A stretch of 64,000 bases of DNA from an uncultured Eubacteriales bacterium (GTDB lineage: Bacteria > Bacillota > Clostridia > RGIG6154). The position numbers and the translations under genes are program-made. The DNA is taken from contig CAZBJD010000001.1 of the NCBI GenBank assembly GCA_964492155.1, forward strand, positions 5,729 to 69,728, given 5' to 3'. The notes under the pieces are model-generated. The model was not told the origin of the DNA and ran no database searches. It saw only the letters and a list, made by a program, of their open reading frames with translations. Shown here piece by piece: positions 38,670-57,310 of the stretch (position 1 is the stretch's first letter; each line of letters begins with the position of its first letter).

Positions 38670-39245
38670 ATGTTTAGAAAGTTTATTGTATGTGTTGTTG
38701 ATTTGTTTTTAAAATTTATATACAAAGTGAATGTTATAGGTGAGGAAAATCTGGAGATTGACGGAGGGTATGTATTAACTGCCAACCACAGAAGTAATTG
38801 GGATGTTGTTGTATTATATGTCTTATTAAAAAGGCAACTTAATTTTATGGCAAAAGCTGAATTGTTTGAAAACGCATTTGCCGGATGGTTCCTGAAAAAA
38901 TTCGGCGCTTTTCCTGTGAAAAGAAATTCAAATGATATCAATGCCATTAAACAGGCAATACATATTTTGAATGATAATAAAATTTTAGCTATTTTTCCTC
39001 AAGGAAAACGTAGCAGCGATTTAAATGTCGATGATGCAAAAGCAGGTGCCGTTTTACTTGCTTCAAGATGTCAAAAGCCGATAGTTCCCATTGCTATTAC
39101 CGGTGAATATAAATTCAGAAGTAAGATTAATATCATTATCGGTGATCCTATGTATTTTGAAGGTCGTAAGCTTTCTCAGGATGAATTAAATCAAAACACC
39201 GTAAATGTTATGCAAAGAATTAAGGAGCTGTCAGAATTGTTATGA
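38670..39245 (+). CDS. plsC: 1-acyl-sn-glycerol-3-phosphate acyltransferase.
   Basis: HxxxxD motif (ANHRSNWD) and PQG(K/T)R. Confidence 0.85.
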   Translation: MFRKFIVCVVDLFLKFIYKVNVIGEENLEIDGGYVLTANHRSNWDVVVLYVLLKRQLNFMAKAELFENAFAGWFLKKFGAFPVKRNSNDINAIKQAIHILNDNKILAIFPQGKRSSDLNVDDAKAGAVLLASRCQKPIVPIAITGEYKFRSKINIIIGDPMYFEGRKLSQDELNQNTVNVMQRIKELSELL

Positions 39246-41191
39246 AAATAATTGTTGCTGAAACTGCCGGTTTTTGCTATGGTGTAAACAGAGCTGTTAA
39301 TATGCTCAATGATGAAATTTCCAAATCTGACAACCTTAAGACATACGGACCTATTATTCATAACTCTGCTGTTGTTGATTCTTTTTCTGCACGTGGCGTC
39401 GAAGTTATCAGTAGTGTGGATGAAATATCACCTGATGACACTGTTTTAATTCGTTCTCATGGCATTTCTAAATTTGAAATGGAAGAAATAAGTAAGCGGG
39501 CAAAAAAAATAATTGATGCAACTTGTCCTTTTGTAAAAAAAATTCATAATGTAGTTGAAAAATATTATAATTTAGGGTATAATATATTTGTTGTGGGTGA
39601 CATAACTCATCCCGAAGTGTTGGGAATACTCGGTTGGTGTGATAATAATGCAACAGTTTTATCTGATTTGAAAGATATTCCCAAAGAGATTTCTTCACTT
39701 GATAATGTTTGCGTTGTTTCACAGACAACATTTGAACGACGTAAATGGGAAGAAATATCTAAAAAAATTCTGCAATCCAAGCATGATTCCGTTATTGTAG
39801 ATACCGTATGTAACGCGACTTTGGACAGGCAGAACGAAGCTATAAATTTATCCGAAATCTGTGACGCTGTTGTTGTTATAGGCGACAACAAGAGTTCAAA
39901 CAGCAAACGCTTAGCTAATGTTGCTGAAAAGAAATGCGCTAACGTTTTCTTTATTCAAAACAAAAATGAATTATTGTTTAATTCGGATAAATTTGATGTT
40001 GTTGGTGTTACTGCAGGTGCTTCAACACCTGCGTGCATAATAAAGGAGGTAGTAAACATGTTAGAAGAAAAAGAAATGAATTTTGAGGAGGCAATTGAAA
40101 GCACTTTAAAACCTTTAAATACAGGGGATATTGTTAAGGGTACTGTTATTAAAATAACACCTACTGAAGTGTATGTTGGACTTGACGCAAAAGCTGATGG
40201 TATTATTCCTGCTGATCAGGTTACAATTAAACCTAACGTAAACATCGAAGATGTTTTATCAGTGGGACAGGAAATTGAAGCATTCGTTGTTCGTGTTAAC
40301 GATATGGAAGGTTATGTTACCCTCTCAATGAGAAAGCTTGAATCTATTGCTGCACAGCGTGAAATTAATGAAGCTTTTGAAAACAAGACCCCTATTAGCG
40401 GTATTGTTACAGAAGTTGTAAAGAGCGGCATTATTGTTGTGGCCTTGGGAACCAAGGTTTTTGTCCCGGCTTCTCTTGCTACTGAAAGATATTCAGAAGA
40501 TTTGTCATCAATGATTGGTCAGGAAGTTACTTTACGTCTTATCGATTTCGATAGAAGAAGACGCAAAGTTGTAGGCTCTATTAAGGAATTGTTACTCGAA
40601 GAAAGAAGAAGAAAGTCTGAAGCTTTCTGGAGCACAATTGAAGAAGGACAGACAATCAAGGGTGTTGTTAAGTCAATTACCAATTTTGGTGTATTTGTTG
40701 ATATTGGCGGTGTTGATGGTTTAGTACATATTACCGAACTTTCATGGAAACACATCAAGCATCCTTCTGAAGTTGTTAATGTTGGTGACATCATTGAAGT
40801 TACCGTATTAAGCTTCGATAAAGAAACGAAGAGAATTTCTTTGGGTCACAAGAAAGCTGAAGATAATCCATGGAATAAAGTAATTGAAACAATTCACGAA
40901 GGAGATATCGTTGATTGTAAAATAGTAAGACTTCTTCCGTTTGGTGCATTTGCCGAAATCATTCCGGGTGTTGATGGCTTGATTCACATTTCACAGATTG
41001 CAAATAAACGTATTGCAAAGCCTGCTGACGTGCTTGAACTTGGACAGGAAGTACAGGCTAAAGTTGTTGATATCAATGCAGAAACTCAGAAGATTGGCTT
41101 AAGTATGCGTGCTCTCATTGAAGAAGAAACTGTGGCAGCAGAAGAAATTCCTGCTCAAAATGAAGAAGAAGTAATTTCTGAAGAAGAATAA
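39242..41191 (+). CDS. ispH: Bifunctional IspH (HMBPP reductase) / ribosomal protein S1-domain fusion.
   Basis: N-terminal LytB fold (MKIIVAETAGFCYGV…), then four S1 repeats (…GVFVDIGGVDGLVHISE…). Confidence 0.85.
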   Translation: MKIIVAETAGFCYGVNRAVNMLNDEISKSDNLKTYGPIIHNSAVVDSFSARGVEVISSVDEISPDDTVLIRSHGISKFEMEEISKRAKKIIDATCPFVKKIHNVVEKYYNLGYNIFVVGDITHPEVLGILGWCDNNATVLSDLKDIPKEISSLDNVCVVSQTTFERRKWEEISKKILQSKHDSVIVDTVCNATLDRQNEAINLSEICDAVVVIGDNKSSNSKRLANVAEKKCANVFFIQNKNELLFNSDKFDVVGVTAGASTPACIIKEVVNMLEEKEMNFEEAIESTLKPLNTGDIVKGTVIKITPTEVYVGLDAKADGIIPADQVTIKPNVNIEDVLSVGQEIEAFVVRVNDMEGYVTLSMRKLESIAAQREINEAFENKTPISGIVTEVVKSGIIVVALGTKVFVPASLATERYSEDLSSMIGQEVTLRLIDFDRRRRKVVGSIKELLLEERRRKSEAFWSTIEEGQTIKGVVKSITNFGVFVDIGGVDGLVHITELSWKHIKHPSEVVNVGDIIEVTVLSFDKETKRISLGHKKAEDNPWNKVIETIHEGDIVDCKIVRLLPFGAFAEIIPGVDGLIHISQIANKRIAKPADVLELGQEVQAKVVDINAETQKIGLSMRALIEEETVAAEEIPAQNEEEVISEEE

Positions 41192-47757: not shown

Positions 47758-48189
47758 TTGGAAAACTCAAATTTGAAACTACACTATGATATTGATAAAA
47801 AAGATTTTATAAATGCTGGCGAGGCATCAAGTTCCGTGAAAAAAGTATTGAGGAAATTAGGTGTAAATCCTGATTGCATCCGAAATCTTGCCATTGCTAT
47901 GTATGAGGCTGAAATTAATATGGTTATTCATGCCAACGGCGGAACTATCGATGTTGAAATTTCCCCGGAATGCATCCATGTTGTTTTGGCAGATAGCGGT
48001 CCCGGGATATCCGATCTTAACCTTGCTATGCAGGAGGGATACTCTACTGCAGGCGATAGCGTTAGAGAGTTGGGTTTTGGAGCCGGGATGGGGTTGCCCA
48101 ATATTAAAAAATACGCTGATGATTTAAAAATTACTACTGAAATTGGTGTTGGTACCACTGTTGAAATCAAAGTAAACATTCCTTCTTAA
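47758..48189 (+). CDS. GHKL ATPase-like protein, anti-sigma regulatory factor (serine kinase) type.
   Basis: HATPase_c N/G-box-like (…EAEINMVIHANGG…DSGPGI…GFGAGMGLPNI…). No HisKA domain. Confidence 0.6.
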   Translation: MENSNLKLHYDIDKKDFINAGEASSSVKKVLRKLGVNPDCIRNLAIAMYEAEINMVIHANGGTIDVEISPECIHVVLADSGPGISDLNLAMQEGYSTAGDSVRELGFGAGMGLPNIKKYADDLKITTEIGVGTTVEIKVNIPS

Positions 48190-48200
48190 GATAGGAGAAT

Positions 48201-49475
48201 ATGATTATGAATAAGTATTTTCACTCTGTTACTTTGGATAAGGACTTATGCAAAGGATGTACTAATTGTCTGAAACATTGTCCAACTGAAGCGATTAGAA
48301 TCAGGAATTCTAAAGCTAAAATTATAAAGGAACGTTGTATAGATTGCGGTGAGTGTATCCGCATTTGTCCATATCATGCTAAGAAGGCGATTACTGATGA
48401 GTATGATAAGATTTTTGATTATAAATACAAAATTGCTTTGCCTGCACCGGCTTTTTACGCTCAATACAATGAAATTAATATTGAAATTTTACTTTATGCT
48501 CTTGAACTTCTTGGGTTCGACGAAGTCAGGGAGGTTACACTCGGTGCAGACATTATTTCTTCCAAAACGAATGATTTATTGGCTAAAGACAGTTCTGTTA
48601 AGCCGCTGATAAGTTCATCATGTCCGGCAATCGTCAGACTTATCAAAATACGATTTCCAAGTTTAATTGATAATATTTTGCCACTGCAAAGTCCTTTAGA
48701 CATTGTTGCCAAAAAGGCAAAATTTGAAAGTGCTGAACGGCTTAAACTTGCCCCTGGCGATGTTGGAGTTTTTTTCATTTCGCCATGTGCCGCAAAAGTT
48801 ACTAGTTGTAAAGCTCCGATTGGCATTTCCGAATCTTATGTAGACGGGGTTATTTCTATCGCCGACATTGTTCGTGAAATCGCACCTTTTTATTCAAAAT
48901 TAACAACAAGTTCTCATTCTACAATTTCAACCTCGTCGGGGATTGGCTGGGCAAAAAGCGGGGGTGAAAGTCAAAAACTTAGCTCATATAACAGTATTGC
49001 AGTTGATGGCGTAAAGAACGTTATCAAAGTTCTCGAAGATTTAGAGGATGATAAAATTGTCGACATTGACTTCATAGAATGTTGTGCGTGTACCGGAGGA
49101 TGTGTTGGTGGACCATTGACTGTAAATAATACATACGTTGCCCAGGCAAATATAAAGAAACTTATGAAAAAATACGAACGTACGCCATATATTGATGATG
49201 TTAATATTGATGATATTTCGCTTACATCACAAATCGAATGTGAACCAATTTTAAAATTGAGTTCTAACATGGCGGAGTCAATAAAAATGATGGATGAGAT
49301 CGACAAACTTATAGATAAACTTCCAGGGCTTGATTGTGGCTCTTGCGGAGCACCGTCATGTACGGCTTTGGCTGAAGATGGAGTTAAAGGTTTTGCCAAA
49401 GAATCAGACTGTATATTTATTTATAAGGAAAAATTAAAATTTATAATGAACGAAATGAATCATCTTGAAGAATAA
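48201..49475 (+). CDS. [FeFe]-hydrogenase-like protein with altered H-cluster motifs. Putative sensory or regulatory.
   Basis: Two CxxCxxCxxxCP motifs. H-domain L1 SSSCP, L2 SPCAAK and L3 ECCACTGGCVGG. C-terminal CGSCGAPSC. Confidence 0.7.
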   Translation: MIMNKYFHSVTLDKDLCKGCTNCLKHCPTEAIRIRNSKAKIIKERCIDCGECIRICPYHAKKAITDEYDKIFDYKYKIALPAPAFYAQYNEINIEILLYALELLGFDEVREVTLGADIISSKTNDLLAKDSSVKPLISSSCPAIVRLIKIRFPSLIDNILPLQSPLDIVAKKAKFESAERLKLAPGDVGVFFISPCAAKVTSCKAPIGISESYVDGVISIADIVREIAPFYSKLTTSSHSTISTSSGIGWAKSGGESQKLSSYNSIAVDGVKNVIKVLEDLEDDKIVDIDFIECCACTGGCVGGPLTVNNTYVAQANIKKLMKKYERTPYIDDVNIDDISLTSQIECEPILKLSSNMAESIKMMDEIDKLIDKLPGLDCGSCGAPSCTALAEDGVKGFAKESDCIFIYKEKLKFIMNEMNHLEE

Positions 49476-49488
49476 GGGAGTATAGCGT

Positions 49489-49818
49489 ATGCTTGTTAAA
49501 GATATTATTGAAAAGCTTGGTGCACAGATTGTTAATGAAGGTGATTTACTGCAACGTGATATTACCGGATGTTACATAGGCGATCTGCTCAGTTGGGTTA
49601 TGGCAAATGCCAGAGAAGGTGATATTTGGCTTACAATTATGTCGAATGTCAATGTTGTTGCTGTTGCAACACTCACTGATATATCTTGTGTTTTAATGTG
49701 CGAAAACGTCGTGCCTGATGAAGATTGTCTTATTCGTGCCAGGGAACAGGGGATTACAATTTTAAAAACTCCGTTATCTGCATATCAGGCTGCGGTTATA
49801 CTTGGTAATATATTATGA
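49489..49818 (+). CDS. Second small DRTGG-like protein.
   Basis: 109 aa. Overlaps the PHP gene start (ATGA). Confidence 0.45.
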   Translation: MLVKDIIEKLGAQIVNEGDLLQRDITGCYIGDLLSWVMANAREGDIWLTIMSNVNVVAVATLTDISCVLMCENVVPDEDCLIRAREQGITILKTPLSAYQAAVILGNIL

Positions 49819-50507
49819 AACTTTATTATGATTTACATATACATTCTGCGTTGTCCCCCTGCGGAGATAACGATATGACACCTAACAACATTGTCAATAT
49901 GTCCATTCTCAAAGGGTTGGATGTTATTGCTGTTTCTGACCACAACAGTATTAAAAATTTGCACGCTGTTTTTGAGGTTGCAAAAAACACCAACTTAATT
50001 GTAATTCCCGCTATGGAAATTGAAACTTCAGAAAATGTGCATATGTTAACTTTATTTCGAGATATGGATGCTGCAGAAAATGCTTATAACAGGATATATA
50101 CATTGCTGCCGGATATTAAAAACGAAAAAGAAATATTCGGTGAACAGCTTGTTATTAACTCAAAGGATGAAATTGTCGATTACGAAGAAAAGCTTTTGGT
50201 TAATTCAGCCAATATTGATATTGCTGAATTAGTCGAGTTAGTAAATAGTGTTGACGGTGTGGTAATACCTGCTCACGTCGACAGAAGTTCTTATAGCATA
50301 TTATCAAATCTCGGCACCGTTCCTGACCTGGGATTTAGACGCATAGAACTGTCGAAAAATGCTGATGAGAAAATGTACGAATATCTTGGCTATGAGTTTA
50401 TAAGAAATTCAGACGCACACTATTTGTATGACATTTTTGAGGCTGAAAACTATTTGGAATGTACGGAAAAATCAATAAATTCGTTTTTTGACGCTATTTT
50501 AAAATGA
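49815..50507 (+). CDS. PHP-domain phosphoesterase.
   Basis: YYDLHIHSALSPCGD…VIAVSDHN PHP motifs. Confidence 0.7.
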   Translation: MKLYYDLHIHSALSPCGDNDMTPNNIVNMSILKGLDVIAVSDHNSIKNLHAVFEVAKNTNLIVIPAMEIETSENVHMLTLFRDMDAAENAYNRIYTLLPDIKNEKEIFGEQLVINSKDEIVDYEEKLLVNSANIDIAELVELVNSVDGVVIPAHVDRSSYSILSNLGTVPDLGFRRIELSKNADEKMYEYLGYEFIRNSDAHYLYDIFEAENYLECTEKSINSFFDAILK

Positions 50508-50535
50508 TAAAAACATTATATTTTTGCTTTTTGTA

Positions 50536-50561
50536 GATTTTTGAATAATTATGTGATATAA
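50536..50561 (+). promoter_or_regulatory. Extended -10 promoter for the hydrogenase operon.
   Basis: TGaTATAAT (50553-50561) with a weak -35. Confidence 0.35.
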
Positions 50562-50606
50562 TCTAGCTTAGACAATTATGTAAATATAATTTAAGGAGGC
50601 ATAAAG

Positions 50607-51101
50607 ATGTCAGATAAAAAACTACCTGCTTTTCAGGGGACTAAAGAGCAGGAAGCACAGCTTATGGAGGTTATTAATAAACATAAGCAGTCTAAGGGAG
50701 CCCTTATCCCGGTTTTACATGAAGCTCAGGAAATATATGGATATCTTCCGATTGAGGTTCAAACAATCATTGCAGAGGAACTGGATTTGCCGCTTGCAGA
50801 AGTATATGGTGTTGTTACATTTTATACTCAGTTCTCGCTTTATCCGAAGGGACAGTACAAAATTGCTGTCTGTCTTGGAACAGCATGCTATGTAAAAGGT
50901 TCAGGCGATCTCTTGGATAAAATCAAAGAAATCCTTAGAATTGACGTAGGGGAATGTACTCCTGACGGTAAATTTTCACTTGAAGCTACTCGCTGTATTG
51001 GTGCATGCGGCTTAGCTCCTGTATTAACTGTAAATGATGATGTTTATGGCAGACTTGTTGTTGATGATATTCCGGGCATTATTGAAAAGTATCAGAATTA
51101 A
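50607..51101 (+). CDS. hydC: NuoE-like [2Fe-2S] subunit of the bifurcating hydrogenase.
   Basis: Thioredoxin-like fold with the conserved Cys pattern (…CLGTACYVKG…CIGACGLAP…). Confidence 0.85.
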   Translation: MSDKKLPAFQGTKEQEAQLMEVINKHKQSKGALIPVLHEAQEIYGYLPIEVQTIIAEELDLPLAEVYGVVTFYTQFSLYPKGQYKIAVCLGTACYVKGSGDLLDKIKEILRIDVGECTPDGKFSLEATRCIGACGLAPVLTVNDDVYGRLVVDDIPGIIEKYQN

Positions 51102-51106
51102 TTAAA

Positions 51107-51649
51107 ATGAAAGAATTATCATTAAATATACTTGATATTGCGGAGAATTCTATAGCTGCTAATGCTACAATTGTCGAAATCAAGATATCCGAACAAGTGT
51201 CCGAAAACTTGCTTGTTATTACTATTTCAGATAACGGCAAAGGTATGAGTGAAGATTTCTTAAAAAACGTTACCGATCCTTTTTCCACCACCAGAAACAC
51301 AAGAAAAGTGGGAATGGGGATATCTTTGTTAAAACTCATAACTGAACAGTCCAACGGTACATTTAGTATATCGTCAAAAGTCGGTGAGGGGACTTGTGTT
51401 AAAGCTATGTTTCAATATAATCACATTGACAGACCTCCGCTCGGAAATATTGAACAAACAATATCTACGCTTGTTTCTTGTAATTTAAATGTTAATTTTG
51501 TTTATGAACACACTTTCAATGACAAAAAATTCACAATGAACACCAAAGAAATCGATGAAATTCTCCGGGGTATACCGCCTAATAATCCGGATGTTATATT
51601 GTGGATGCAAAGTTATATCAGGGAAGGAATTGATAGTATTTCTTTCTGA
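51107..51649 (+). CDS. Histidine-kinase-like ATPase (HATPase_c only) embedded in the hydrogenase operon.
   Basis: …ITISDNGKGM…GMGISLL… G-boxes with no phospho-acceptor domain. Confidence 0.7.
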   Translation: MKELSLNILDIAENSIAANATIVEIKISEQVSENLLVITISDNGKGMSEDFLKNVTDPFSTTRNTRKVGMGISLLKLITEQSNGTFSISSKVGEGTCVKAMFQYNHIDRPPLGNIEQTISTLVSCNLNVNFVYEHTFNDKKFTMNTKEIDEILRGIPPNNPDVILWMQSYIREGIDSISF

Positions 51650-51710
51650 AACCAATTTGTTAAATATTATTATGCTGAATGTTTTCGTTCGGCAAGATAG
51701 GAGTTTAAAT

Positions 51711-52082
51711 ATGAAAAGTTTAGCAGATTTAGAAGCGATTAGACAAAAAACAATAAATAGGGTTAATTTAAGAAATGAATCTGAAGACAGCACACGTATC
51801 GTCGTTGGTATGGCAACTTGCGGTATAGCTGCAGGTGCACGTCCTGTTATGCAGGCTTTTGTTGAAGAAATTAACAAAAGAAACTTATCAGACACATATG
51901 TAGCTCAGACAGGTTGCATTGGTCTTTGCAAGTACGAACCTATTGTTGAAGTATACACTTCTGGCAAAGAAAAAGTTACTTATGTTAAAGTAACTCCGGA
52001 AAAAGTAGCTAAAATCGTTGCAGAACATATTGTTAATGGTAAAGTTGTTGACGAATACACTATTGGCGCTGCTGAAAAGTAA
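51711..52082 (+). CDS. Thioredoxin-like [2Fe-2S] ferredoxin (HydD-like).
   Basis: Start at MKSLADL after AGGAG (ORF-track start 51555). …MATCGIAAGA…GCIGLCKYEP…. Confidence 0.7.
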   Translation: MKSLADLEAIRQKTINRVNLRNESEDSTRIVVGMATCGIAAGARPVMQAFVEEINKRNLSDTYVAQTGCIGLCKYEPIVEVYTSGKEKVTYVKVTPEKVAKIVAEHIVNGKVVDEYTIGAAEK

Positions 52083-52124
52083 TTTTACATAACGCTATTG
52101 GTGTGTTGAAATGGAGGAAAGAAA

Positions 52125-53915
52125 ATGGAACTTGTAAGATCTCATGTTTTGGTTTGCGGTGGTACCGGTTGTACATCTTCCGGATCTACACAAATCATTG
52201 ATGAATTTGAAAAACAACTTAAAAATTTTAATATTGATAACGAAGTTAAAGTTGTTAAAACTGGTTGCTTTGGTTTGTGTGCTTTAGGACCGATTGTTAT
52301 CATATATCCTGAAGGTTCATTTTATAGCATGGTTAAAACCGAAGATGTTGCTGAAATTGTTGAACAGCACTTACTTAAAGGTAAAATTGTTAAGAGATTG
52401 CTTTATAAAGAGACTATTGAAGAAGATAATATCAAGTCTCTTAATGAAGTTGATTTCTATAAAAAACAACTTCGTGTTGCTTTGAGAAATTGCGGTGTAA
52501 TTAATCCGGAAGATATTGATGAATATATTGCACAAGACGGTTATAAAGCACTTGGTAAGGTTCTTACCGAAATGACACCGGAAGAAGTTATTAATGTTGT
52601 AAAGGAATCCGGTTTGCGTGGCCGTGGAGGCGGTGGTTTCCCCACAGGTGTTAAATGGAGTTTTGCTGCACAACAAGTTAATGAACAAAAATATGTTCTT
52701 TGTAATGCCGACGAAGGTGACCCGGGTGCATTTATGGATAGATCTATTCTCGAAGGTGACCCTCACAGCTTAATTGAAGCTATGTCGATAGCAGGTTATG
52801 CAATTGGTGCTAATCAGGGTTATGTATACGTAAGAGCTGAATATCCGATCGCTGTGCACAGACTCAATGTTGCAATAAAGCAGGCTAGAGAATACGGTTT
52901 ACTTGGTAATAACATCTTTGGAACTGATTTTTCATTTGATCTTGAAATCCGTCTTGGTGCCGGTGCGTTTGTTTGTGGTGAAGAAACTGCTCTTATCACT
53001 TCTATTGAAGGACATAGAGGTGAACCTAGACCAAGACCGCCATTCCCGGCAGTTAAAGGTCTTTGGGGCAAGCCTTCAATTCTTAATAACGTTGAAACTT
53101 ATGCAAATATTCCTGTTATCTTCCTTAAAGGGGTAGATTGGTTTACTTCTATCGGTACAGAAAAGAGCAAAGGAACTAAAGTATTTGCCTTAGGTGGTAA
53201 GATTAACAATACCGGTTTGGTTGAAGTGCCAATGGGCACAACTTTAAGAGAAGTTGTATACGAAATTGGCGGTGGAATTCCTAACGGAAAGAAATTCAAA
53301 GCTGCTCAGACCGGCGGTCCCTCAGGCGGATGTATCCCTGCTGAACTAATCGATACACCTATCGATTATGATTCACTTATCAGCATTGGTTCTATGATGG
53401 GTTCAGGCGGACTTATCGTAATGGATGAAGATACCTGTATGGTTGATATTGCAAAATTCTTCCTTGAATTTACTGTTGATGAATCATGCGGTAAATGTGT
53501 TCCTTGTCGTATTGGTACAAAGAGAATGCTTGAAATTCTTACTAAAATTACTAACGGACAAGGTACTCTTGAAGATATCGATAAGTTGGAACAACTTTGT
53601 CTTTCAGTTAAGAGCAGTGCATTGTGCGGTCTTGGTCAGACAGCTCCAAACCCAATTTTAAGCACACTCAAATACTTCAGACATGAATATGAAGAACACG
53701 TTGTTGAGAAGAAATGCCGTGCAGGCGTTTGTAAGGCACTTCTCAGCTATGTAATTGATGCTGATAAATGTATTGGTTGCGGAATTTGTGCAAGAAATTG
53801 TCCTGTTTCTGCAATCACAGGAAAAATTAAAGAACCGTTTGTTATTGATACTGCTAAGTGCGTAAAATGCGGTCTTTGTGAAACAAAATGTCCTAAAAAG
53901 GCAATCAGCAAATAA
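52125..53915 (+). CDS. hydB: NuoF-like NADH/FMN-binding subunit with N-terminal and C-terminal Fe-S domains.
   Basis: GRGGGGFPTGVKW FMN site, NADH site, and C-terminal 2x[4Fe-4S] CxxCxxCxxxCP. Confidence 0.9.
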   Translation: MELVRSHVLVCGGTGCTSSGSTQIIDEFEKQLKNFNIDNEVKVVKTGCFGLCALGPIVIIYPEGSFYSMVKTEDVAEIVEQHLLKGKIVKRLLYKETIEEDNIKSLNEVDFYKKQLRVALRNCGVINPEDIDEYIAQDGYKALGKVLTEMTPEEVINVVKESGLRGRGGGGFPTGVKWSFAAQQVNEQKYVLCNADEGDPGAFMDRSILEGDPHSLIEAMSIAGYAIGANQGYVYVRAEYPIAVHRLNVAIKQAREYGLLGNNIFGTDFSFDLEIRLGAGAFVCGEETALITSIEGHRGEPRPRPPFPAVKGLWGKPSILNNVETYANIPVIFLKGVDWFTSIGTEKSKGTKVFALGGKINNTGLVEVPMGTTLREVVYEIGGGIPNGKKFKAAQTGGPSGGCIPAELIDTPIDYDSLISIGSMMGSGGLIVMDEDTCMVDIAKFFLEFTVDESCGKCVPCRIGTKRMLEILTKITNGQGTLEDIDKLEQLCLSVKSSALCGLGQTAPNPILSTLKYFRHEYEEHVVEKKCRAGVCKALLSYVIDADKCIGCGICARNCPVSAITGKIKEPFVIDTAKCVKCGLCETKCPKKAISK

Positions 53916-53931
53916 AGGAGGTAAGTTGATA

Positions 53932-55671
53932 ATGGAAAATGTTACTCTTAAAATTAATAATATAGAAGTCACAGTTCCTGCTGACTATACAATTTTACAG
54001 GCAGCAAGAAGCGCGAATATCGACATCCCTACGCTTTGCTACCTTGAAGGATTAAACAAACTCGGTTCTTGTCGTTTGTGCGTTGTTGAAATTAAAGGTG
54101 CAAGAGCTCTTCAGGCAGCTTGCGTATATCCAGTAGCAGAGGGAATAGAAGTATTCACAAATACTCCTGCTGTACGAAAAGCAAGAAAAGCTAATTTAGA
54201 GCTTATTCTTTCAAATCATGACAGAAAATGTCTCACTTGTACCAGAAACAGAAATTGTGAACTTCAGGCATTGGCTGATGAATTTGGCATTGAAGATTTA
54301 GGATTTACAGGTGAAAATGATCCGAAGCTTCCTATCGAAGATTCTTCAACATCATACATTCGCGATAACAACAAATGCGTGCTTTGCAGACGTTGTGTTG
54401 CAGCTTGTGATAATCAGGCAGTTTCAGTTATTTCATGCATAAACAGAGGTTTTGCAACAACTGTTGGTACTGCTTTTGAAAAACCTGTTTCAGAAGTTGC
54501 ATGTATTTTCTGCGGACAGTGTATCAATGCTTGTCCCACAGGTGCTTTAACAGAAAAAAGTCATATTCCTCAGGTTTTGGAAGCCATTGATAATGCTGAA
54601 AAACATGTTGTTGTGCAGACTGCTCCGGCAGTTCGTGCAGCTCTTGGCGAGGAGTTCGGATTACCGATGGGTACCCCTGTTACAGGTAAAATGGTAACCG
54701 CTCTCAAGATTCTTGGTTTTGATAAAGTTTTCGACACAGACACTGCTGCTGACCTTACAATTATGGAAGAGGGAACAGAGTTTATTGAAAGATTTACTAA
54801 ACAGGAAAAATTACCGCTTATTACTTCATGCAGCCCCGGTTGGGTCAAGTATTGCGAACACTTTTTCCCAGAATTTACTGACAATCTTTCTTCAGCAAAA
54901 TCACCTATGGAAATGTTTGGCGCTGTAATCAAATCATATTATGCCGAAAAGAATAATATTGACAAAAAAGATATTTATTCTGTTGCAGTTATGCCATGTA
55001 CTTCTAAGAAATACGAAATTCAGAGAGAAGAAATGTCAAGCAGTGGTGCAGCTGATATTGATGCTTCACTTACAACACGTGAGCTTGCCAGAATGATTAA
55101 ACAGGCAGGTATCAATTTTGCCGATCTTCCTGATTCGGAATTTGACGATCCATTTGGCAATGCTACAGGTGCCGGAGTAATTTTTGGTGCTACTGGTGGT
55201 GTTATGGAAGCTGCAATCAGAACCGTTTACGAAGTTTTGGAAGGCAAATCGCTTGAAAATCTTGAACTTGCTCCAATTCGTGGAATGGACGGAATTAAAG
55301 AAGCAACTCTTACTATAAAAGGTAATGATGTTAAGATTGCTGTAGTTCATGGCACAAAAAATGCAAAAGAATTGCTTACAAAGATTAAAGCAGGTGAAGC
55401 AAAATATGATTTCATTGAAATTATGGCTTGCCCGGGCGGTTGTGTAAATGGTGGCGGTCAGCCAATTGTTCCCGCCAAAGAACAAGCTTTAATTGATGTT
55501 AGGGTAGAGAGAGCAAAAGCACTTTATGCCGAAGACAGAAATTCTGCATTGAGAAAATCTCACGAAAATCCTGCAATCAAGAAGCTTTATGAAGAATACT
55601 TTGAAAAACCATGTTCACATAAAGCTCATGAACTTTTGCATACTCATTATACAAAGAGAAGCAAATATTAA
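53932..55671 (+). CDS. hydA: [FeFe]-hydrogenase catalytic subunit, with a NuoG-like N-terminal region.
   Basis: L2 MPCTSKKYE, L3 EIMACPGGCVNGGGQP, L1 reads TSCSPGW. Start at MENVTL (ORF-track start 53878). Confidence 0.9.
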   Translation: MENVTLKINNIEVTVPADYTILQAARSANIDIPTLCYLEGLNKLGSCRLCVVEIKGARALQAACVYPVAEGIEVFTNTPAVRKARKANLELILSNHDRKCLTCTRNRNCELQALADEFGIEDLGFTGENDPKLPIEDSSTSYIRDNNKCVLCRRCVAACDNQAVSVISCINRGFATTVGTAFEKPVSEVACIFCGQCINACPTGALTEKSHIPQVLEAIDNAEKHVVVQTAPAVRAALGEEFGLPMGTPVTGKMVTALKILGFDKVFDTDTAADLTIMEEGTEFIERFTKQEKLPLITSCSPGWVKYCEHFFPEFTDNLSSAKSPMEMFGAVIKSYYAEKNNIDKKDIYSVAVMPCTSKKYEIQREEMSSSGAADIDASLTTRELARMIKQAGINFADLPDSEFDDPFGNATGAGVIFGATGGVMEAAIRTVYEVLEGKSLENLELAPIRGMDGIKEATLTIKGNDVKIAVVHGTKNAKELLTKIKAGEAKYDFIEIMACPGGCVNGGGQPIVPAKEQALIDVRVERAKALYAEDRNSALRKSHENPAIKKLYEEYFEKPCSHKAHELLHTHYTKRSKY

Positions 55672-56338: not shown

Positions 56339-57310
56339 ATGGGGTTTAATATATCAGAACAACCATTGGTTTACAAAGAGTTTCTTATGTATATGCAAAC
56401 CATACGCGGTAAATCAATTGGTACAATTTCCGAATACGCATTAGATTTAAATATCTTTTTTAAATTTATGGTTCGTCATTTTGATACATCTGTATCATCT
56501 GAAATTGATGAAATTGACATCAGTAATCTTAACTACGATTTCGTAAAAAAAATTCAACTCACAGACATCTACGAATATCTTTCTTATATGAACACTGTCA
56601 GAAAAAATTCTGCTGCAACGCGTGCTCGCAAAGTTGCATGTTTGAGAAGCTATTTTAAGTATATGCATAGCAAAGCGAAATATATCAATGATAATCCAAC
56701 AAAAGAATTGGAATCTCCAAAGCTTAAGCAATCGCTGCCTAATTATCTGACTTTAGAGGAATCCAAAACTTTGTTGGAAACCGTTTTGAAAAACTCAAAT
56801 GGATATCGTGACTATGCGATTATTACCTTATTTCTCAATTGCGGAATGCGGTTGTCTGAGTTAGTTGGAATTAACTTGACTGATATTAAAAATGACACAT
56901 TAATTGTCACAGGTAAAGGCAACAAAGAACGAACAATATATTTAAACAACGCTTGCATTCAGGCAATCGCAAAATATTTAAAAGAGCGACCCGTGGATAA
57001 CGTTAAAGATAAAAATGCTTTATTTTTAAGTGCTCGTAACCAAAGAATAAGTAACAAGACTGTCCAGCATCTTGTAAAAAAATATTTACAGCTTGCAGGG
57101 CTTGATACAACACGCTTTTCTACTCACAAACTCAGACATACTGCAGCTACATTAATGTATCGTGAAGGAAATACCGATTTGCGGACACTGCAAGAAATCT
57201 TAGGTCATGAACACCTATCAACCACGCAGATATATACACATGTTAACGATCGGCAACAAAAAAATGCTATGGAAAATAACCCATTAGCAAATATAGTCAC
57301 AACTGAATAA
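56339..57310 (+). CDS. Tyrosine site-specific recombinase (XerC/XerD-like).
   Basis: Catalytic R…HKLRHTAAT…LGHEHLSTTQIYTHV (R-H-R-Y pattern). N-terminal SAM-like domain. Confidence 0.8.
   Translation: MGFNISEQPLVYKEFLMYMQTIRGKSIGTISEYALDLNIFFKFMVRHFDTSVSSEIDEIDISNLNYDFVKKIQLTDIYEYLSYMNTVRKNSAATRARKVACLRSYFKYMHSKAKYINDNPTKELESPKLKQSLPNYLTLEESKTLLETVLKNSNGYRDYAIITLFLNCGMRLSELVGINLTDIKNDTLIVTGKGNKERTIYLNNACIQAIAKYLKERPVDNVKDKNALFLSARNQRISNKTVQHLVKKYLQLAGLDTTRFSTHKLRHTAATLMYREGNTDLRTLQEILGHEHLSTTQIYTHVNDRQQKNAMENNPLANIVTTE

What the first reader, a model, noticed from the sequence alone, without database searches (positions are those of the whole stretch)
53932..55671. Catalytic HydA reads TSCSPGW at H-cluster motif L1
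Direct translation gives …PLITSCSPGWVKY… at the position of motif L1. L2 (MPCTSKKYE) and L3 (EIMACPGGCVNGGGQP) are canonical. In canonical numbering (C. pasteurianum CpI), the first Cys of TSCCP is the proton-relay residue and the second ligates the [4Fe-4S]H subcluster. Here the second position is Ser. This could be a genuine lineage-specific variant, a sequencing or assembly error, or a shifted alignment. The upstream sensory paralog carries the reciprocal arrangement, SSSCP.
Basis: seen in the sequence. Interest (0 to 1): 0.55.

Follow-up and report, generated by a model that had tools for sequence, protein, structure and literature searches.

The report
Natural serine ligand in HydA hydrogenase
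The hydrogenase gene really does encode serine where textbooks show an iron-sulfur-binding cysteine, but this is a conserved natural variant that is already described and shared with the solved Acetobacterium woodii enzyme, not an error or a new kind of enzyme.

Summary
Window 53932-55671(+) encodes a 579-aa HydA whose L1 motif reads T298-S299-C300-S301-P302-G303-W304. The S301 codon is AGC at 54832-54834. L2 and L3 are canonical.

Ungapped alignments put S301 on CpI Cys300 and T. kivui Cys299, the [4Fe-4S]H ligand. They put C300 on CpI Cys299, the proton relay.

It is not an error:
- All 120 closest database proteins (73-93% identity) read TSCSPGW.
- All 80 species-level genomes (57-91% identity) read TSCSPGW, using all six Ser codons.

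It is not new:
- The best solved-structure match, A. woodii HydA1 (PDB 7Q4V, 60% identity), has the same motif.
- Katsyv et al. 2023 report Ser301 replacing that cysteine ligand, with normal FTIR signatures and activity.
- Kertess et al. 2017 note Ser at this position in about 20% of putative hydrogenase sequences. I find 17 Ser against 95 Cys among 50%-identity cluster representatives.

The gene sits in an A. woodii-like hydC-HATPase-hydD-hydB-hydA operon, preceded by a group D sensory paralog (SSSCP) cluster.

One question stays open: why the equivalent engineered Cys-to-Ser change destroys algal HydA1 while natural Ser scaffolds work.

Verdict: real, conserved, already known, low interest.

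The parts
53932..55671 (+). hydA: catalytic [FeFe]-hydrogenase subunit, 579 aa. It has the M3-type N-terminus (2Fe-2S plus 4Fe-4S domains), an H-domain and a small-subunit-like C-terminus.
   Evidence: Pfam hits are Fe_hyd_lg_C at 2e-104, Fe_hyd_SSU, Fer2_4 and NADH-G_4Fe-4S_3. NCBIfam NF040763 'NADH-dependent [FeFe] hydrogenase, group A6' scores 909 bits against a cut-off of 765. The best PDB match is A. woodii HydA1 7q4v_A at E 4.6e-230, with 60% global identity.
54823..54843 (+). H-cluster motif L1, TSCSPGW (T298-W304). C300 (54829-54831, TGC) is at the proton-relay position. S301 (54832-54834, AGC) is at the [4Fe-4S]H ligand position.
   Evidence: Sequence. The alignment to CpI C299/C300, T. 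kivui C298/C299 and A. woodii C300/S301 is ungapped. The motif is conserved in 120 of 120 homologs and 80 of 80 genomes.
54991..55017 (+). H-cluster motif L2, MPCTSKKYE. C356 corresponds to CpI C355, M354 to M353 and K359 to K358.
55417..55464 (+). H-cluster motif L3, EIMACPGGCVNGGGQP. C500 corresponds to CpI C499. C504 corresponds to CpI C503, the cysteine that bridges to the 2Fe subsite.
   Evidence: The bridging role of the last L3 Cys is taken from Kertess 2017.
52125..53915 (+). hydB: NuoF-like flavoprotein subunit, 596 aa. It has an N-terminal 2Fe-2S domain, an FMN/NAD domain and two C-terminal 4Fe-4S clusters.
   Evidence: The best PDB match is A. woodii HydB 7q4v_B at E 5.8e-297. Pfam hits are Complex1_51K, NADH_4Fe-4S and Fer4. 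It lies upstream of hydA in 61 of 61 related loci with enough flank.
51711..52082 (+). hydD-like small thioredoxin-like 2Fe-2S ferredoxin, 123 aa from the ATG at 51711.
   Evidence: Pfam 2Fe-2S_thioredx and NCBIfam fdxn_Clost. It resembles the N-terminal domains of HydB/NfnB-type subunits. The ATG is preceded by AGGAG. The start is inferred.
51107..51649 (+). Histidine-kinase-like ATPase gene between hydC and hydD.
   Evidence: Pfam HATPase_c at 4.6e-16. It is conserved at this position in most related loci.
50607..51101 (+). hydC: NuoE-like thioredoxin-like 2Fe-2S subunit, 164 aa.
   Evidence: The best PDB match is A. woodii HydC 7q4v_C at E 1.8e-57. Pfam 2Fe-2S_thioredx at 3.8e-52.
48201..49475 (+). 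Putative sensory [FeFe]-hydrogenase paralog, 424 aa, M2e/group D-like. L1 reads SSSCP at 48612-48626, and the C-terminus carries a Cx2Cx4Cx16C motif starting at 49335.
   Evidence: Pfam hits are Fer4 x2, Fe_hyd_lg_C at 1e-34 and a C-terminal 'FeS' PF04060 domain, with no PAS domain. SSSCP aligns with TSCCP. The architecture matches the description of M2e/group D TamHydS.
47758..48189 (+). RsbW/anti-sigma-like HATPase_c_2 gene flanking the sensory paralog.
   Evidence: Pfam HATPase_c_2 at 3.9e-12. It co-occurs with the paralog in related loci.
49489..50507 (+). DRTGG-domain gene (49489-49818) and PHP-domain gene (49815-50507), lying between the sensory paralog and hydC.
   Evidence: Pfam DRTGG and PHP. 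Their order is conserved in 37 of 49 related loci with at least 6.5 kb of upstream flank.

Best explanation
This is the catalytic subunit of an A. woodii-type HydABC(D) NAD- and ferredoxin-linked (electron-bifurcating or confurcating) [FeFe]-hydrogenase. It belongs to a large natural lineage in which the L1 cysteine that normally ligates the [4Fe-4S] part of the H-cluster is a serine.

Shown by sequence: S301 sits exactly at the ligand position. C300 and the rest of the proton relay (E280, E283, R287, S320), the other three cluster cysteines (C356, C500, C504) and the second-sphere residues M354, K359 and M498 are all canonical.

Inferred by homology to the A. woodii structure and spectroscopy: the Ser301 side-chain oxygen takes the place of the cysteine thiolate as fourth ligand of [4Fe-4S]H. 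C300 still shuttles protons to the azadithiolate bridge. The enzyme is a normally active, bidirectional hydrogenase.

Inferred from gene content: in this AT-rich gut or rumen-type Clostridia genome it most likely disposes of NADH and reduced ferredoxin as H2, under control of the adjacent group D sensory hydrogenase cluster.
For: - Motif and codons were read directly.
- Position equivalence: the alignments to CpI, T. kivui and A. woodii HydA1 are ungapped, and numbering was checked as CpI C299/C300, Tk C298/C299 and Aw C300/S301.
- A. woodii HydA1, the best PDB hit (E 4.6e-230, 60% identity), has the identical ITSCSPGW.
- Katsyv et al. 2023 (PMC10021017) state that the Cys299Tk ligand of cluster A1 is replaced by Ser301Aw. 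[quoted passage not shown]
- Conservation: 120 of 120 nearest proteins and 80 of 80 species genomes carry the motif. All six Ser codons are used, with at least 5 AGY/TCN family switches on the tree. The window and A. woodii fall in an all-Ser clade of 89 sequences.
- All other catalytic residues are conserved.
- HydB and HydC best match the A. woodii subunits. HydB is adjacent in 61 of 61 loci.
- NCBIfam NF040763 scores above its cut-off.
- Ser at this position in about 20% of putative hydrogenases was already noted. I find 17 Ser against 95 Cys among 50%-identity representatives.
Against: - No structure or assay exists for this protein. Direct Fe-O(Ser) ligation is transferred from a 60%-identical homolog solved by cryo-EM, whose coordinates I could not inspect.
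- The equivalent engineered change in C. reinhardtii HydA1 (C115S) loses the [4Fe-4S] cluster and all activity. Ser ligation is therefore not tolerated in every scaffold.
- The AlphaFold model made here has low confidence (mean pLDDT 61) and contains no cofactors.
- Read-level support for the window itself could not be checked, and no identical protein is on record elsewhere.
Confidence: 0.9

Rival explanations
1. Sequencing or assembly error, or a strain-private inactivating mutation. A single A-for-T change would turn TGC (Cys) into AGC (Ser).
For: AGC is one substitution away from TGC. Read support could not be inspected, and no identical protein is on record.
Against: All 120 nearest proteins and all 80 species-level genomes have Ser at this codon. 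The Ser codons include TCN types that are unrelated by single error to the window's AGC. The closest genome, L001 at 91% identity, has the synonymous AGT. The ORF is otherwise intact, with all catalytic residues present.
Confidence: 0.01
2. Register shift at the active site. The single remaining L1 cysteine (C300) moves to ligate the [4Fe-4S]H cluster, as proposed for the neighbouring Cys in the CrHydA1 C115A variant. The proton relay is then served by a serine or by water.
For: [quoted passage not shown] C300 is invariant in the Ser clade, which fits either role. Cryo-EM resolution may not discriminate well between the two arrangements.
Against: The depositors of the A. woodii structure describe Ser301 as the ligand replacing Cys299Tk, and they report a typical H-cluster with normal FTIR states and activity. 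The whole proton relay (E280, E283, R287, S320) stays conserved together with C300, as expected if C300 still heads it. Sequence alignment is ungapped around L1.
Confidence: 0.05
3. Another cysteine is recruited as the fourth ligand. The candidate is Cys308, which is Cys in 85 of 89 members of the window's clade but rare in canonical enzymes.
For: Column 308 is Cys in 81% of Ser-type sequences in the sample, against 9% of Cys-type sequences. It is invariant among the 34 close homologs.
Against: A. woodii HydA1 is active and Ser-ligated yet has Ile at this position. Among independent 50%-identity representatives, Cys308 is no more frequent in Ser-type (3 of 17) than in Cys-type (9 of 95), p = 0.39. 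It is therefore a clade trait. Residue 308 lies seven residues downstream of S301, within the predicted helix 303-311. By helix geometry that is roughly two turns from the cluster end, which is an inference.
Confidence: 0.02
4. The Ser variant marks a catalytically crippled or sensory hydrogenase rather than a working enzyme.
For: Engineered C115S in CrHydA1 is inactive. Di Rienzi et al. 2013 contrast their two TSCSPGW hydrogenases, which also carry a Cys-to-Ile replacement in motif 3, with the one enzyme that has all necessary residues.
Against: A. woodii HydABC with the same motif is an active bidirectional, bifurcating hydrogenase. L2, L3 and the proton pathway are intact here, unlike in sensory groups C and D. 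The gene is the terminal gene of a complete hydCDBA operon, and a separate sensory paralog is present.
Confidence: 0.02

Closest known systems
Acetobacterium woodii HydA1 in HydABC(D) (PDB 7Q4V, 7Q4W, 8A5E; Katsyv et al. 2023, PMC10021017)
   Same: Same L1 motif ITSCSPGW, with Ser301 at the [4Fe-4S]H ligand position. Same domain architecture and length (579 aa here; the solved chain is 583 residues and matches over its positions 1-581). HydB and HydC of the window also best match the A. woodii subunits. Both fall in one all-Ser clade.
   Different: Only 60% identical. The window enzyme has Cys308 where A. woodii has Ile, and Met326 where A. woodii has Gln. The host is an uncultured, AT-rich (35% GC) gut or rumen-type Clostridia lineage, probably a fermenter rather than an acetogen, which is an inference. 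The window operon is preceded by a group D sensory hydrogenase cluster. I did not check whether A. woodii has one.
Canonical group A [FeFe]-hydrogenases with TSCCPxW (C. pasteurianum CpI; Thermoanaerobacter kivui HydA1, PDB 8A6T)
   Same: Same fold and domain order, 46% (CpI) and 53% (T. kivui) identity. L2, L3, the proton-relay residues and the second-sphere Met and Lys residues are identical.
   Different: The L1 ligand is Cys (CpI C300, Tk C299) instead of Ser. CpI is monomeric and ferredoxin-dependent, with no HydB or HydC partners.
Engineered C. reinhardtii HydA1 C115S (Kertess et al. 2017, PMC5855289)
   Same: Same chemical change, Cys to Ser, at the same L1 ligand position. That position is the Cys next to the proton-relay Cys114 in that paper's numbering.
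   Different: The engineered variant loses most of its [4Fe-4S] cluster, does not take up the 2Fe subsite and shows no activity. The natural Ser scaffold of A. woodii is fully functional. The permissive features are unknown.
Thermoanaerobacter mathranii HydS (TamHydS), M2e/group D putative sensory [FeFe]-hydrogenase. This comparison is for the upstream paralog only.
   Same: Two N-terminal [4Fe-4S] motifs, an H-domain lacking the C299 proton-relay Cys, a hydroxyl residue at the M353 position (SPC), a C-terminal Cx2Cx4Cx16C motif, no PAS domain and a flanking histidine-kinase-like ATPase gene.
   Different: The window paralog has Ser at the C299 position (SSSCP). Most paralogs in related loci have Ala: SSACP, NSACP or STACP in 26 of 37. 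No biochemical data exist for it.

Membership tests
[FeFe]-hydrogenase group A, HydABC-type catalytic subunit (NCBIfam NF040763 / TIGR02512; Pfam PF02906 + PF02256) | Curated profile HMM scores above the family cut-offs | tested here: met
   NF040763 scores 909.3 bits against a cut-off of 765. TIGR02512 scores 545 against 406. PF02906 scores 349 bits and PF02256 96 bits.
[FeFe]-hydrogenase group A, HydABC-type catalytic subunit | Textbook L1 motif TSCCPxW, with both the proton-relay Cys and the ligand Cys | tested here: not met
   The motif is TSCSPGW. The relay Cys300 is present and the ligand position is Ser301. The strict motif is not family-defining. The structurally solved member A. woodii HydA1 has the same Ser, and about 15-20% of sequences do too.
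[FeFe]-hydrogenase group A, HydABC-type catalytic subunit | L2 (MPCxxKxxE) and L3 (ExMxCxxGCxxGGGxP) with the three remaining cluster cysteines | tested here: met
   MPCTSKKYE with C356, and EIMACPGGCVNGGGQP with C500 and C504.
[FeFe]-hydrogenase group A, HydABC-type catalytic subunit | Group A proton-transfer pathway (CpI E279, E282, R286, C299, S319) | tested here: met
   E280, E283, R287, C300 and S320 are all present.
[FeFe]-hydrogenase group A, HydABC-type catalytic subunit | H-cluster assembled and H2 turnover | not testable with these tools
   Known only for the A. woodii ortholog.
HydABC electron-bifurcating hydrogenase complex (A. woodii / T. kivui / T. maritima type) | NuoF-like HydB and NuoE-like HydC encoded with HydA | tested here: met
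   HydB matches 7q4v_B at E 5.8e-297, and HydC matches 7q4v_C at E 1.8e-57. The gene order hydC-HATPase-hydD-hydB-hydA is contiguous. HydB is adjacent in 61 of 61 related loci.
HydABC electron-bifurcating hydrogenase complex | Coupled NAD+ and ferredoxin reduction by H2 (bifurcation or confurcation) | not testable with these tools
   Inferred from orthology only. NCBIfam names the family 'NADH-dependent'.
Group D (M2e) putative sensory [FeFe]-hydrogenase (upstream paralog 48201-49475) | Two N-terminal [4Fe-4S] motifs, an H-domain, a C-terminal Cx2Cx4Cx16C motif and no PAS domain | tested here: met
   Pfam Fer4 x2, Fe_hyd_lg_C and C-terminal PF04060, with no PAS hit. The motif CGSCGAPSC...C starts at 49335. 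The definition is from Land et al. 2020.
Group D (M2e) putative sensory [FeFe]-hydrogenase (upstream paralog) | Proton-relay Cys299 absent, and M353 replaced by Ser or Thr | tested here: met
   SSSCP aligns with TSCCP, and SPC stands in place of MPC.
Group D (M2e) putative sensory [FeFe]-hydrogenase (upstream paralog) | Phylogenetic placement within group D rather than group C | not tested
   No tree with group C and D references was built.

The most novel reading that the evidence does not exclude
Serine at the [4Fe-4S]H ligand position is actively selected in this HydABC lineage rather than merely tolerated. It is kept through at least five switches between the two Ser codon families, with no Cys among about 200 relatives, even though Cys is one mutation away.

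On this reading Ser tunes the H-cluster, for example its [4Fe-4S]H potential, catalytic bias or oxidative robustness, for NADH- and ferredoxin-coupled operation. It would depend on permissive scaffold features such as an aliphatic residue instead of Phe before the motif, and Gly303. Those features would explain why the same substitution destroys algal HydA1.
Probability: 0.25. Interest if true: 0.45.

Novelty: already known. Interest (0 to 1): 0.15.

Why it matters
- Annotation: strict TSCCPxW matching would wrongly flag roughly one in six HydA-like cluster representatives as defective. This includes an abundant gut and rumen Clostridia clade. Earlier metagenome work set TSCSPGW enzymes apart from the one with all necessary residues.
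- Enzymology: this locus adds one more natural Ser-ligated scaffold. It could be compared with the failed CrHydA1 C115S variant to learn what lets an oxygen ligand hold the H-cluster cubane.

Neither point changes current understanding.

Tried and rejected
- Independent assemblies. I looked for other assemblies encoding the identical protein as a proxy for read support. None is on record for either start codon.
- Cys308 as compensating ligand. This was rejected. It is Ile in A. woodii, and it is not enriched among independent Ser-type representatives (3/17 against 9/95, p = 0.39).
- Second-site residues co-varying with Ser301. I scanned 375 H-domain columns using only 50%-identity representatives. 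Gly303 (14/17 against 34/95, p = 4e-4) and non-Phe297 (12/17 against 23/95, p = 3e-4) are suggestive. Only Val250 passes Bonferroni correction, and CpI has Val there too. None of the tests corrects for phylogeny, so no robust signature is claimed.
- Single origin of the Ser state. On an NJ tree the window's clade (89 sequences) is uniformly Ser. Other Ser-type representatives are scattered among Cys types, with a Fitch minimum of 19 changes. The deep NJ topology is too coarse to tell recurrent exchange from noise.
- AlphaFold2 model, to judge geometry. Only the secondary structure was used: strand 296-299 and helix 303-311.
- Literature. A full-text search for 'TSCSP' plus 'hydrogenase' returned one relevant paper. 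A search for 'serine ligand' plus 'H-cluster' returned only the A. woodii paper.
- Met326 in place of CpI Gln325. I checked whether this is unusual. The position varies freely (Q, M, H), so I dropped it.
Full report
**Observation**

Window 53932-55671 on the + strand is an intact ORF of 579 codons. Its ATG follows a strong Shine-Dalgarno sequence (AAAGGAGG) and the hydB stop codon. The closest database homologs have the same length.

The codons at 54820-54843 are att act tca tgc agc ccc ggt tgg. These read I297-T298-S299-C300-S301-P302-G303-W304. L2 (MPCTSKKYE, 54991-55017) and L3 (EIMACPGGCVNGGGQP, 55417-55464) fit the canonical patterns.

**Which position is the serine?**

HMMER alignments against solved structures are ungapped for tens of residues on both sides of L1. 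I rebuilt the numbering from the aligned chains:
- CpI TSCCPGW starts at 297, giving C299 and C300.
- T. kivui HydA1 TSCCPSW starts at 296, giving C298 and C299.
- A. woodii HydA1 TSCSPGW starts at 298, giving C300 and S301.

C299 (CpI numbering) heads the group A proton-transfer pathway (Land et al. 2020). Cys299 of T. kivui is a ligand of the [4Fe-4S] cluster of the H-cluster (Katsyv et al. 2023).

**Error or real?**

- All 120 best hits in the 5.8-billion-protein collection (73-93% identity) read TSCSPGW.
- A scan of one genome per species returned 80 loci at 57-91% identity. All 80 read TSCSPGW.
- The Ser codon in those loci is TCA 31, AGC 19, TCT 12, AGT 6, TCC 6 and TCG 6. Both Ser codon families are used, which cannot interconvert by one substitution.
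- At least five family switches are needed on a neighbour-joining tree.
- The nearest genome (91% identity) has the synonymous AGT where the window has AGC.

A sequencing or assembly error is excluded for practical purposes. Reads could not be inspected, and no identical protein is on record elsewhere.

**What it is**

The best solved-structure match is A. woodii HydA1 of the electron-bifurcating HydABC complex (7q4v_A, E 4.6e-230; 60% global identity). It carries the identical ITSCSPGW.

The neighbouring genes match the same complex. HydB matches 7q4v_B at E 5.8e-297, and HydC matches 7q4v_C at E 1.8e-57. A histidine-kinase-like ATPase gene and a small 2Fe-2S ferredoxin (hydD-like) lie between them. 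NCBIfam files the protein under NF040763, 'NADH-dependent [FeFe] hydrogenase, group A6', with 909 bits against a cut-off of 765.

HydB lies next to hydA in 61 of 61 related loci with enough flank. The whole upstream regulatory block recurs in 37 of 49 loci with at least 6.5 kb of flank. That block comprises an RsbW-like ATPase, a sensory hydrogenase paralog, a DRTGG gene and a PHP gene.

Flanking genes are ordinary chromosomal ones: Lon, HisRS, an IspH-S1 fusion, and a long ORF downstream that I read as Mfd-like from its translation alone. The window has 35% GC. The related genomes are gut and rumen Clostridia MAGs.

**How it most likely works**

Every other catalytic element is canonical:
- the proton relay E280, E283, R287, C300 and S320;
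- the ligands C356, C500 and C504;
- M354, K359, M498 and F418.

For the A. woodii enzyme, Katsyv et al. state that one cysteine ligand of cluster A1 (Cys299 in T. kivui) is replaced by Ser301. [quoted passage not shown] They also report that the complex shows similar signatures and activities to the Cys-type T. kivui complex.

By homology, Ser301 of the window enzyme supplies an oxygen ligand to [4Fe-4S]H. C300 keeps its proton-relay role, and the enzyme is an active HydABC-type hydrogenase. The sequence facts are shown here. The ligation and the activity are inferred from a 60%-identical ortholog.

One caveat on that paper. Its text names Cys356Aw (the L2 cysteine) as the residue that also binds the di-iron site. 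Kertess et al. and the usual CpI description give the last L3 cysteine as the bridge. This does not affect the Ser301 statement.

**Rivals**

- Register shift, with C300 becoming the ligand. This has a precedent only as a suggestion for CrHydA1 C115A. It conflicts with the A. woodii description and with the conserved relay.
- Cys308 as substitute ligand. Cys308 is strikingly conserved in the window's clade (85 of 89). But it is Ile in A. woodii, and it is not enriched among independent Ser-type representatives (3/17 against 9/95, p = 0.39). It lies within the predicted helix 303-311, seven residues beyond S301.
- A crippled or sensory enzyme. This is contradicted by the activity of the A. woodii complex and by the presence of a separate sensory paralog.

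**Distribution**

I searched the 1.84-billion-protein representative library and took the 131 best-scoring 50%-identity cluster representatives that cover the H-domain. Of these, 17 have Cys-Ser and 95 have Cys-Cys at the two L1 positions.

On a neighbour-joining tree built without the Ser column, the window and A. woodii fall in an all-Ser clade of 89 sequences. Other Ser-type representatives are interspersed with Cys-type ones. The deep topology is too coarse to decide how many times the exchange happened.

**Comparison with what is known**

The variant is in the literature in three places:
- Kertess et al. 2017, citing Winkler, Esselborn and Happe 2013, remark that serine occupies this position in about 20% of analysed putative hydrogenase sequences. 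They note this suggests serine as an alternative ligand.
- Di Rienzi et al. 2013 noted TSCSPGW in Melainabacteria hydrogenases.
- Katsyv et al. 2023 showed the Ser ligand structurally and spectroscopically.

My figure of 17 against 95 agrees with the published 20%. One point stays unexplained. The same substitution engineered into algal HydA1 (C115S, next to Cys114) gives little [4Fe-4S] cluster, no 2Fe insertion and no activity. My search for co-varying permissive residues gave only suggestive, uncorrected signals: Gly303 and a non-Phe residue at 297.

**The paralog**

The 424-aa protein at 48201-49475 aligns SSSCP with TSCCP. It has:
- two N-terminal [4Fe-4S] motifs;
- SPC in place of MPC in L2;
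- a C-terminal Cx2Cx4Cx16C motif;
- no PAS domain;
- a flanking ATPase gene.

This is the M2e/group D architecture described for TamHydS. It simply reflects the known loss of the relay cysteine in sensory groups.

**Verdict**

The feature is conserved, functional by homology and already described. Interest is low. The residual interest lies in whether the serine is adaptive, and in what makes it tolerable in this scaffold.

Noticed in passing
window 48612-48626 (paralog 48201-49475); related loci L007-L080: The group D-like sensory paralog has Ser at the proton-relay position (SSSCP). The corresponding paralogs in related genomes mostly have Ala there: SSACP 19, NSACP 4 and STACP 3 of 37. The other 11 were not matched by my pattern.
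   Followed up: partly
window 47758-55671: There is a nine-gene block: RsbW-like ATPase, sensory hydrogenase, DRTGG, PHP, hydC, HATPase, hydD-like, hydB and hydA. It recurs in 37 of 49 related loci with enough flank. In some loci the regulatory half is inverted or hydC is relocated.
   Followed up: partly
window 54853-54855 (Cys308 of HydA): Cys308 lies seven residues after Ser301. It is Cys in 85 of 89 members of the window's clade but Ile in A. woodii, and it is rare elsewhere. It looks like a clade trait of unknown role, and probably not a ligand.
   Followed up: yes
window 51555-52082: The mechanical ORF for the hydD-like ferredoxin starts at 51555 and overlaps the HATPase gene by about 95 nt. 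An ATG at 51711 with an AGGAG 7 nt upstream is the more likely start.
   Followed up: partly
window 56339-57310: A tyrosine recombinase (Phage_integrase family, XerC/D-like) lies about 670 nt downstream of hydA. It is followed by an N-acetylmuramoyl-L-alanine amidase on the opposite strand. I did not examine whether this marks a mobile-element boundary.
   Followed up: no
protein P0121 (representative library, not in the window): The top-scoring representative is a 4122-aa protein with seven separate hydrogenase-like stretches, at 44% identity. It is either a giant multi-H-domain fusion or a gene-call or assembly artefact.
   Followed up: no
literature: PMC10021017 against PMC5855289: Katsyv et al. 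name Cys356Aw/Cys354Tk (the L2 cysteine) as the residue that also binds the di-iron site. Kertess et al. give the last L3 cysteine, equivalent to CpI C503, as the bridge. This is probably a slip in numbering.
   Followed up: no
window 39242-41191: A single 649-aa ORF combines an IspH/LytB domain with four S1 RNA-binding repeats.
   Followed up: no
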